Positions 26,596 through 26,802 of a stretch of DNA of 64,000 bases are shown piece after piece. The notes under the pieces are model-generated. The model searched no databases. It worked only from the letters and a program-made list of their open reading frames with translations, and was not told the DNA's origin. The stretch comes from a virus. Its lineage: Duplodnaviria; Caudoviricetes. The DNA lies in the IMG/VR virus record IMGVR_UViG_3300045391_004375, positions 16,816 through 80,815 of that record. One strand, 5' to 3'. The first letter of the stretch is position 1; every line of letters begins with the position of its first letter. The translations under genes were made by a program, and so were the position numbers.

Positions 26596-26715
26596 GGGTT
26601 GGTAGCTCAACCGGTAGGGCGCAGGACTTGGCCGGCTGCATAGCAAAGGGTCCTGGCAAGGGTCGCGGAATCCTAGGTTCCGCATGCCATGGAGGTTCGA
26701 GGCCTCCCCACCCCA
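26596..26715 (+). tRNA. 120-nt tRNA-like RNA with a 24-nt anticodon loop and 35-nt variable region
   Basis: TAGCTCAACCGGTAGGGC D arm, CAGGA/TCCTG stem, GGAGG-TTCGAGG-CCTCC T arm, GGGTTGG/CCACCCC acceptor; anticodon ambiguous. Confidence 0.55.
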
Positions 26716-26726
26716 CAAACCCCCTG

Positions 26727-26802
26727 GGGGAGTAGCCCAACGGTAGAGGCTGGTTCGGACATGCCAAGTCCGTAGTACCCGGTTCGAGTCCGGGTCTCCC
26801 CA
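26727..26802 (+). tRNA. aberrant tRNA-Gly(GCC)-like
   Basis: GGGGAG/CTCCCC acceptor, GCC/GGC D stem, CGGAC-ATGCCAA-GTCCG arm, CCCGG-TTCGAGT-CCGGG T arm; 5-nt D/anticodon linker. Confidence 0.6.

What the first reader, a model, noticed from the sequence alone, without database searches (positions are those of the whole stretch)
26596..26802. Tandem tRNA-like pair with intact elbows but remodelled anticodon regions
Seen: the first unit (120 nt) has normal acceptor, D and T arms, but a 24-nt loop on the CAGGA/TCCTG stem and a 35-nt variable region holding a GCGGAA/TTCCGC hairpin. The second unit has a GCC anticodon arm, a 5-nt D-to-anticodon linker, a 6-bp acceptor stem and A rather than the usual Gly U73. 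Inference: these may be decoys for anticodon nucleases or tRNA-sensing defences, non-decoding mimics, or RNAs with a tiny intron, rather than simple pseudogenes.
Basis: partly seen in the sequence, partly recalled or inferred. Interest (0 to 1): 0.7.

Follow-up and report, generated by a model that had tools for sequence, protein, structure and literature searches.

The report
Two odd phage tRNA-shaped RNA genes
Two neighbouring tRNA-shaped genes in an uncultured high-GC phage are real: the second is a strongly conserved, unusually wired glycine-type tRNA, and the first is a one-off tRNA frame with extra folded inserts that cannot read codons, like the long-known but unexplained tRNA-like RNAs of phage T5.

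Summary
Both units pass Rfam's tRNA threshold (36.3 and 32.4 bits) and have the described anatomy. They end a 2.3-kb non-coding stretch (24730-27030) behind a TTGACA-17-TAGTGT promoter in an 80.8-kb phage with terminal repeats. Related phages carry mixed arrays of tRNAs and tRNA-like RNAs at the same place.

Unit 2 (26727-26802) is not a pseudogene. It is 94% identical to copies in another phage lineage whose flanking genes are only 66-68% identical. Three stem pairs change in a compensating way. The conserved fold has a 6-bp acceptor, a 6-bp T stem, a 1-nt connector, a 6-7-bp anticodon stem and a normal AUGCCAA loop. The discriminator base varies (A/U/G), and the most distant copy has C33 and a different anticodon.

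Unit 1 (26596-26715) has no relative anywhere searched and cannot decode. It matches the kind known from T5 RNA1 and RNA2.

Best reading: host tRNA-processing enzymes mature both into stable RNAs. Whether unit 2 decodes is open. The intron, attP and Y-RNA readings failed their tests. The decoy idea is untested.

This scan has noted similar tRNA-frame arrays in other phages before.

The parts
24724..24752 (+). Promoter-like site TTGACA-17 nt-TAGTGT at the start of the non-coding operon. Its -35 box overlaps the stop codon of the upstream JAB/MPN gene.
   Evidence: Read. The site and the start of the transcript align with L010 2806-2861 (77% over 56 nt). The strict sigma-70 scan did not call it, because the -10 box is only TANNNT.
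24753..26595 (+). Body of the non-coding operon upstream of the pair. It holds further tRNA-shaped elements (25486-25570, 25612-25712) and a conserved 37-nt hairpin block (25118-25154).
   Evidence: No GC3 bias. Cloverleaf-like minimum-energy folds. 25118-25154 is 89% identical to L030 2427-2463. No Rfam family other than tRNA at E<=10.
26596..26715 (+). Unit 1: a 120-nt tRNA frame (acceptor, D arm and T arm intact). Its anticodon stem closes a 24-nt loop that can extend into an 8-bp helix plus a small hairpin. It also has a 35-nt variable arm with an 8-bp hairpin. Discriminator A, no CCA.
   Evidence: Rfam tRNA 36.3 bits. Fold. No homolog in any locus or collection searched.
26716..26726 (+). 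11-nt spacer between the units, not conserved in relatives.
   Evidence: Flank comparison.
26727..26802 (+). Unit 2: a 76-nt non-canonical tRNA.
- acceptor GGGGAG/CTCCCC (6 bp)
- connector U
- D arm AGCC-CAACGGTAGA-GGCT
- linker GG
- anticodon stem TTCGGAC/GTCCGTA, closing loop ATGCCAA (GCC at 26763-26765)
- T arm ACCCGG-TTCGAGT-CCGGGT (6 bp)
- discriminator A
   Evidence: ARAGORN Gly(GCC). Rfam 32.4 bits. 93.75% identical to the L030-L033 copies and 80% to L010. 97% of cells paired and 3 compensating pairs. z-score -2.45. The covariance model separates the family at 96-105 bits from generic tRNAs at <=44 bits.

Best explanation
The pair are two real RNA genes at the 3' end of a phage non-coding operon. 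That operon sits where related phages carry arrays of tRNAs and tRNA-like RNAs.

Inferred mechanism: the operon is transcribed from the TTGACA-17-TAGTGT promoter. Host RNase P cuts at the 5' end of each acceptor stem. Host 3' trimming and the CCA-adding enzyme finish the 3' ends, since no CCA is encoded. The tRNA frame (a 12-bp acceptor/T stack plus the D/T elbow) makes both products stable, processed small RNAs.

Unit 2 is a selectively maintained, non-canonical tRNA. One base pair has moved from the acceptor stem to the T stem (6+6 instead of 7+5). The connector is one nucleotide, the anticodon stem is lengthened, and the loop is a normal Gly-type AUGCCAA. It may still decode GGC/GGU. However, the family keeps the elbow better than the anticodon loop and the discriminator, so its conserved job may not be decoding.

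Unit 1 cannot decode. It is a natural 'tRNA-scaffolded' RNA of the T5 RNA1/RNA2 kind. The frame supplies processing and stability, and the inserted helices are the payload, whose target is unknown.
For: Shown:
- Both units pass Rfam's tRNA cut-off.
- The region is non-coding.
- Relatives found through the terminase carry tRNA and tRNA-like arrays at the same place.
- Unit 2 is 93.75% identical over 80 nt to a lineage whose neighbouring coding DNA is 66-68% identical. The conservation stops exactly at GGGGAG...CTCCCC.
- In unit 2, 23 pairs are 97% paired, with compensating changes in the D stem, the anticodon stem and the sixth T-stem pair.
- The 5' leader base differs (G/C/T), so only the 6-bp register is shared.
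- The D loop and T loop are invariant. The anticodon loop differs at 3 of 7 positions in L010, and the discriminator is A/U/G.
- Anticodon-less tRNA frames are selected in this clade. A Sec-like family has 10 covarying pairs. Two 95% identical phages carry the same frame with a swapped middle and a compensating acceptor change.
- The T5 record annotates RNA1 and RNA2 as 'tRNA-like stable RNA with unknown functions', and they fold as frame plus enlarged middle.

From the literature:
- An acceptor + D + T scaffold with the anticodon arm replaced is processed and accumulates in E. coli (PMC3753655).
- Working decoders with a 1-nt connector, a 6-bp anticodon stem and a short variable loop exist: tRNAPyl and mt-tRNASer(UCN) (PMC7609411).
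Against: - No expression, end-mapping or charging data exist. The host is unknown.
- Unit 1 has no homolog, one acceptor mismatch and no stability signal (z -0.57). Its minimum-energy fold competes with the cloverleaf. It could be a recently wrecked tRNA gene.
- Unit 2's covariation rests on only three distinct sequences, and the shuffle controls are not extreme (32-57 of 500).
- The high identity could partly reflect recent transfer between phages.
- Unit 2 is absent from two complete relatives, so it is an accessory gene.
- The promoter is only a consensus match.
Confidence: 0.55

Rival explanations
1. Unit 2 is simply a working elongator tRNA-Gly(GCC) with an unusual but compensated architecture. 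It supplies or protects decoding of the abundant GGC/GGU codons during infection. Unit 1 is irrelevant debris beside it.
For: - Canonical 7-nt loop with U33, GCC and A37 in the window and in the four L030-group contigs.
- All elbow nucleotides are present.
- The 12-bp acceptor/T stack is preserved.
- There is precedent for similar compaction in tRNAPyl and mt-tRNASer(UCN).
- Conservation is strong.
Against: - The discriminator is A, U or G in the three lineages, and L010 has C33 and GCU. That is unusual for orthologous decoders.
- Position 2:71 is G:C, not the C2:G71 of bacterial Gly identity (my own knowledge of GlyRS identity rules).
- The orthologs fall below Rfam detection.
Confidence: 0.35
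2. Both units are relics of a decaying tRNA array, with no function of their own.
For: - Relatives have canonical tRNAs at this place, while the window has none there.
- Unit 1 is unique, has an acceptor mismatch and is no more stable than shuffled sequence.
Against: - Unit 2's 94% identity against 66-68% in the flanks, with compensating changes, excludes decay for unit 2.
- Unit 1's extra sequence forms clean helices, and its four frame helices are intact.
- The clade maintains anticodon-less frames under selection.
Confidence: 0.1
3. The units are decoys or inhibitors aimed at host tRNA-targeting defences (anticodon nucleases, acceptor-end-modifying toxins) or at other tRNA-binding host factors.
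For: - The frames are kept while the anticodon-side modules turn over fast and are even swapped between 95% identical phages. That pattern is expected under an arms race.
- The literature shows phage tRNAs interacting with tRNA-targeting defences (PMC10264068, listed).
Against: - There is no linked anti-defence or tRNA-repair gene. RtcB, Ro, the CCA enzyme, Pth and Pth2 are all absent.
- Unit 2 keeps a normal, cleavable anticodon loop.
- Nothing here identifies a target.
Confidence: 0.15
4. Unit 1 is a tRNA (Pro-UGG or Leu-UAG type) interrupted by a 17-nt intron in the anticodon loop.
For: Removing 17 nt can leave CUUGGGG or CUUAGGG, which are plausible 7-nt loops with G37 (read).
Against: - No group I intron or ribozyme match.
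- No splicing endonuclease or RtcB ligase in the phage.
- I know of no bacterial mechanism for such introns.
- The 35-nt variable insert would remain.
Confidence: 0.03
5. Unit 2 is conserved because it is an attP core copied from a host tRNA gene.
For: Sharp conservation of a tRNA-sized block is typical of attP/attB cores.
Against: - No tyrosine integrase in the genome.
- The genome has direct terminal repeats.
- Neither half of unit 2 occurs in 185,579 prokaryote species genomes.
Confidence: 0.02

Closest known systems
Phage T5 RNA1 and RNA2 (GenBank AY543070, misc_RNA 'tRNA-like stable RNA with unknown functions'); also T5 RNA3 and RNAX
   Same: - They are encoded inside a phage tRNA gene region.
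- The acceptor, D arm and T arm are kept, with a much enlarged middle (144 and 125 nt against 120 nt for unit 1).
- A long stable RNA (RNAX, 719 nt) lies directly 5' of a tRNA. Likewise, the long non-coding stretch here lies 5' of unit 1.
   Different: - There is no sequence similarity.
- T5 RNA1 uses a Leu-type D arm, whereas unit 1 has a class I D arm plus a long variable arm.
- The T5 RNAs were shown to be stable species. Nothing is known about expression here.
- The host phylum differs.
tRNAPyl and mammalian mitochondrial tRNASer(UCN), non-canonical but working decoders (PMC7609411)
   Same: A single nucleotide between the acceptor and D stems, a lengthened anticodon stem and a very short variable loop, with the L shape retained. 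Unit 2 shows the same set of compensations.
   Different: - Unit 2 also shifts one pair from the acceptor stem to the T stem (6+6), which that review does not describe.
- It keeps a full-size D loop with G18G19.
- It carries a GCC anticodon.
- It is phage-encoded.
Engineered 'tRNA scaffold' for recombinant RNA (Ponchon and Dardel; PMC3753655)
   Same: An acceptor + D + T frame with the anticodon stem-loop replaced by another hairpin is processed and accumulates in bacteria. Unit 1 and the sealed-anticodon elements of this clade have that design.
   Different: It is an artificial construct. It suggests what the frame would do, not what the natural inserts do.
YrlA-type bacterial and phage Y RNAs (Rfam RF02553; PMC4201824)
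   Same: Non-decoding RNAs with a tRNA-like D/T elbow, also found in actinobacteriophages. Sub-threshold YrlA matches occur in the arrays of relatives (L008 5831-5933 at 37.6 bits; L010 5762-5827).
   Different: - In YrlA the 5' and 3' ends form a Ro60-binding stem on the anticodon side, and the acceptor side is closed. Here the ends are at the acceptor stem.
- There is no YrlA match in the window.
- The genome has no Ro60/TROVE gene.

Membership tests
Canonical tRNA (Rfam RF00005) | Score at or above the Rfam gathering threshold (29 bits) | tested here: met
   Unit 1 scores 36.3 bits and unit 2 scores 32.4 bits. The unit 2 orthologs in L030, L033 and L010 are not listed even at E<=0.5.
Canonical tRNA (Rfam RF00005) | 5-bp anticodon stem closing a 7-nt loop with U33 and a purine at position 37 | tested here: not met
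   Unit 1 has a 24-nt loop. Unit 2 has a 7-nt loop AUGCCAA, but on a 6-7-bp stem with a 2-nt linker, and L010 has C33.
Canonical tRNA (Rfam RF00005) | 7-bp acceptor stem, 2-nt connector, 5-bp T stem | tested here: not met
   Unit 2: only the 6-bp register is shared by the three lineages, and the sixth T-stem pair covaries (A-U to G-C). Unit 1 does have 7 bp (one mismatch), a UA connector and a 5-bp T stem.
Canonical tRNA (Rfam RF00005) | Aminoacylation and use on the ribosome | not testable with these tools
   This needs acid-gel or in vitro charging assays. The discriminator is not conserved (A/U/G).
Phage tRNA-like stable RNAs (T5 RNA1/RNA2 kind) | Encoded in a phage tRNA gene region or array | tested here: met
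   It is syntenic with the tRNA and tRNA-like arrays of relatives. T5 annotation.
Phage tRNA-like stable RNAs (T5 RNA1/RNA2 kind) | Acceptor, D arm and T arm kept, with a middle enlarged beyond any decoding arm | tested here: met
   Unit 1. T5 RNA1 and RNA2 folds.
Phage tRNA-like stable RNAs (T5 RNA1/RNA2 kind) | Accumulates as a discrete stable RNA in infected cells | not testable with these tools
   There are no transcript data for this uncultured phage.
YrlA / Y RNA (RF02553) | Covariance-model match, a Ro-binding stem formed by the RNA ends, and a nearby Ro60 (TROVE) gene | tested here: not met
   No YrlA match in 24600-27100 at E<=10. No TROVE domain in the genome. The ends are on the acceptor side.
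Intron-containing tRNA | A group I intron in the anticodon loop, or a bulge-helix-bulge site with a splicing endonuclease and ligase | tested here: not met
   No intron family match. No tRNA_int_endo or RtcB in the genome.
attP copy of a host tRNA gene | Identity to a host tRNA gene, and an integrase in the phage | tested here: not met
   No match in genome contigs. No Phage_integrase domain. Serine recombinases were not searched.
tRNAPyl / mt-tRNASer(UCN)-like compact tRNAs | 1-nt acceptor-D connector, 6-bp anticodon stem, variable loop of about 3 nt | tested here: inconclusive
   Unit 2 can be drawn with a 1-nt connector, a 6-7-bp anticodon stem (2 of 3 lineages pair at each added position) and a 2-4-nt variable loop. 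This is an architectural likeness only, with no homology.

The most novel reading that the evidence does not exclude
Unit 2 founds a structurally new class of natural tRNA. The 12-bp acceptor/T stack is split 6+6, and the anticodon stem is lengthened. The RNA is charged and acts either as a decoder resistant to host tRNA-targeting enzymes or in a non-ribosomal role. Unit 1 and its clade-mates are natural tRNA-scaffolded RNAs, whose exchangeable inserts are payloads directed at host factors.
Probability: 0.2. Interest if true: 0.8.

Novelty: new variant of a known kind. Interest (0 to 1): 0.5.

Why it matters
Phage tRNA clusters have held unexplained 'tRNA-like stable RNAs' for decades; I know of T4 species 1 and 2, and the T5 GenBank record annotates RNA1-3. 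This locus adds three things:
- a high-GC actinophage lineage where such RNAs dominate a dedicated promoter-driven operon;
- a small conserved family (unit 2) that offers a concrete test of how far the tRNA frame can be rewired (6+6 stack) while staying under selection;
- direct evidence in close relatives that the middle of a tRNA frame can be exchanged like a cassette.

If the frames serve as natural expression scaffolds or as mimics aimed at host tRNA-binding proteins, this would explain a recurrent, unannotated class of phage genes. It would also provide ready-made scaffolds for expressing RNA in actinobacteria.

Tried and rejected
- **Protein-coding reading.** The overlapping ORFs (for example 26431-26814 on the minus strand) were rejected: no GC3 bias.
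- **Known phages and plasmids.** No DNA match for 26400-27000.
- **Orthologs of unit 1.** All searches were negative:
  - BLAST against all fetched relatives;
  - a two-anchor pattern in IMG/VR;
  - best-match scans of its 5' and 3' frame halves;
  - its anticodon-arm insert;
  - its variable-arm hairpin, which gave 8 unrelated chance hairpins.
- **attP idea.** No integrase and no host match.
- **Intron idea.** No endonuclease, ligase or intron family.
- **Y RNA idea.** No YrlA match in the window and no Ro60.
- **Linked tRNA-handling enzymes.** CCA enzyme, Pth, Pth2, FemAB and FemX-like genes were all absent.
- **My own regex scan for tRNA frames.** It was too noisy to use, with counts similar to shuffled sequence.
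- **Sec-like family model (R2).** It has no member in the window, only 21 bits at 25485-25570.
- **Terminator scan.** Nothing found after unit 2.

Full report
**Setting.** The window is bases 16816-80815 of an 80,815-bp virus record with direct terminal repeats. It is about 69% G+C. Its large terminase is about 40% identical to those of Streptomyces and Microbacterium phages. A third-position G+C plot shows clear coding signal up to 24727 and again from about 27000, but none in any frame across 24730-27030. The ORFs listed over the finding are therefore chance ORFs of high-GC DNA. The upstream gene encodes a JAB/MPN-like protein, and its stop codon overlaps a TTGACA hexamer. I read TTGACA-17 nt-TAGTGT at 24724-24752. 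This site and the first bases after it align with L010 2806-2861. The strict sigma-70 scan did not call it.

**Observation.** Rfam's tRNA model matches 26596-26715 (36.3 bits) and 26726-26802 (32.4 bits); the gathering score is 29, and the E-values for the whole window are 6e-4 and 7e-3.
- Unit 1 has a 7-bp acceptor with one mismatch, a normal D arm with GG, and a normal T arm.
- Its CAGGA/TCCTG stem closes 24 nt, and its 35-nt variable region carries an 8-bp hairpin.
- Unit 2 is called tRNA-Gly(GCC) by ARAGORN, with the anticodon three to four positions late.
- Neither unit encodes CCA.
- Taken alone, unit 1 is no more stable than shuffled sequence (z -0.57), and its best fold competes with the cloverleaf. 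Unit 2 folds as a cloverleaf with z -2.45.

**Relatives.** Terminase-based retrieval gave nine loci at about 60% protein identity. At the same place upstream of the terminase they carry arrays that mix ordinary tRNAs with odd ones:
- loops of 5, 6 or 8 nt;
- an anticodon arm turned into a GNRA-capped hairpin (L010 4814-4898);
- inserts of 49 to about 80 nt in place of the anticodon loop (L007 5568-5680, L010 5085-5226, L030 3934-4052);
- a Sec-like family (8-bp acceptor, 6-bp D stem, long variable arm) with a 4-5-nt, non-conserved 'anticodon' loop.

The Sec-like family shows 10 covarying pairs among three sequences. Anticodon-less tRNA frames are therefore maintained by selection in this clade.

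Two phages about 95% identical overall (L030, L033) are identical through the 5' acceptor strand and D arm of one element, and again from the 3' acceptor end onward. Between those points they carry unrelated middles and T arms, with a compensating change in the acceptor stem. The inside of a tRNA frame has thus been exchanged like a cassette. Earlier notes of this scan describe the same behaviour in other phages. I treated those notes as leads and checked this point on this clade myself.

**Unit 2.** A pattern scan of metagenome contigs found four contigs of one phage group (L030-L033) besides L010.
- Unit 2 is 93.75% identical over 80 nt to that group, while the terminase, portal and other coding DNA around it is 66-68% identical.
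- The similarity ends exactly at GGGGAG on the left and CTCCCC on the right.
- The base before GGGGAG is G, C or T. So the 7-bp register used by Rfam in the window is not shared, and the orthologs are not reported by Rfam at all.
- On the three distinct sequences, a structure with a 6-bp acceptor, 4-bp D stem, 7-bp anticodon stem and 6-bp T stem is 97% paired. It has compensating changes in the D stem, the anticodon stem and the sixth T-stem pair (A-U to G-C).
- With three sequences the shuffle controls are only moderately exceeded, so this is supportive rather than conclusive.
- The acceptor/T stack remains 12 bp (6+6).
- The 1-nt connector, the longer anticodon stem and the short variable loop recall tRNAPyl and mt-tRNASer(UCN), which are working decoders (PMC7609411).
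- The D loop and T loop are invariant. The anticodon loop is AUGCCAA in two lineages but ACGCUAG (C33, GCU) in L010, and the discriminator is A, U or G.
- A covariance model of the family scores 96-105 bits on its members and at most 44 bits on ordinary tRNAs. It finds nothing in two complete related genomes, so the gene is an accessory one.
- Its 5' half is identical to that of a short, class-I-shaped 'tRNA-Leu(UAA)' in an unrelated jumbo phage. Unit 2 thus looks like a Leu-type upper body carrying a Gly-type anticodon arm.
- It is not an attP copy of a host tRNA. There is no integrase, and neither half matches any of 185,579 species genomes.

**Unit 1.** No relative was found by any route, so selection on it cannot be tested.
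- For a function: four intact frame helices, all elbow nucleotides present, extra sequence that forms clean helices rather than scattered damage, a tRNA-operon-like 11-nt spacing to unit 2, and membership of a class that is selected and fast-changing in relatives.
- Against: uniqueness, one acceptor mismatch and no stability signal.
- With a 24-nt loop it cannot decode.
- A 17-nt intron could formally restore a Pro- or Leu-type loop. However, no intron family, splicing endonuclease or RtcB is present.

**Known things.**
- The GenBank record of phage T5 annotates RNA1 (144 nt) and RNA2 (125 nt) as 'tRNA-like stable RNA with unknown functions'. It also annotates RNA3 and a 719-nt RNAX lying directly 5' of a tRNA. 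RNA1 and RNA2 fold as acceptor + D + T frames with enlarged middles. This is the closest known kind for unit 1 and for the layout of the operon.
- The engineered 'tRNA scaffold' shows that such frames are processed and accumulate when the anticodon arm is replaced (PMC3753655). I infer from this that the frame here recruits RNase P, 3' trimming and CCA addition.
- YrlA-type Y RNAs are the other known non-decoding tRNA mimics in actinophages (PMC4201824). Relatives have sub-threshold YrlA matches, but the window has none and no Ro60 gene, and the topology is the reverse.
- No gene for a CCA enzyme, Pth, Pth2 or a Fem-type transferase accompanies the locus.

**Verdict.** Unit 2 is a functional, conserved, non-canonically wired tRNA. 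Whether it decodes is open: I put decoding at roughly 35-40%. Unit 1 is a lineage-specific, non-decoding tRNA-frame RNA of the T5 RNA1/RNA2 kind, with a modest chance of being recent wreckage. The mechanism steps (promoter use, RNase P and 3' processing, stability) are inferred. The decoy idea remains untested.

Noticed in passing
window 6149-6221 (+): A canonical 73-nt tRNA with a CUA (amber-reading) anticodon, scoring 54.4 bits on Rfam tRNA. ARAGORN labels it tRNA-Pyl only because of the anticodon. It lies about 20 kb from the non-coding operon.
   Followed up: no
window 25486-25570 (+): Its minimum-energy fold is a clean four-way junction: an 8-bp acceptor, a 6-bp 'D' stem with a 4-nt loop (Sec/allo-tRNA-like), a long sealed 'anticodon' hairpin with a tetraloop, and a 4-bp T stem with loop TTCGATT. 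It is a tRNA frame with no anticodon. Rfam tRNA does not see it.
   Followed up: partly
window 25612-25712 (+): Another tRNA-shaped fold, with a 6-bp T arm (GGAGG-TTCGAGT-CCTCC region) that is 76% identical to unit 1's T arm, a short acceptor and a branched middle.
   Followed up: partly
window 25118-25154 (+): A 37-nt block 89% identical to L030 2427-2463 and to L033. It is a 6-7-bp hairpin with the conserved loop AAAGGCCAC. Apart from unit 2, it is the only stretch between 24800 and 27000 with a BLAST match to the L030/L033 lineage.
   Followed up: no
L004 390-486, L011 7619-7714, L008 4621-4712: A conserved family of Sec-like tRNA frames (8-bp acceptor, 6-bp D stem, long variable arm, 5-bp T stem) with a 4-5-nt non-conserved 'anticodon' loop. 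It shows 10 covarying pairs among three sequences.
   Followed up: partly
L030 2836-2910 versus L033 5838-5931 (-): In two roughly 95% identical phages, the flanks, the 5' acceptor strand and the D arm are almost identical. Between them, the anticodon-side middle and the T arm are replaced (75 nt against 94 nt), with a compensating acceptor change. This is a cassette-like swap inside a tRNA frame.
   Followed up: partly
L008 5831-5933 and 6006-6069; L010 5762-5827: Sub-threshold matches to the Y RNA-like family YrlA (37.6, 35.3 and 30.6 bits; the gathering score is 69) at the end of the arrays in relatives.
   Followed up: no
L034 5534-5609; L025 848-921: Short (74-76 nt), class-I-shaped phage tRNAs with Leu anticodons (UAA, CAA) and a Leu-type D arm. 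The L034 gene shares its first 25 nt exactly with unit 2, although it comes from an unrelated 168-kb phage contig.
   Followed up: no
L010 4814-4898: A tRNA frame (51 bits on Rfam tRNA) whose anticodon arm is an extended hairpin capped by the GNRA tetraloop GAGA.
   Followed up: no
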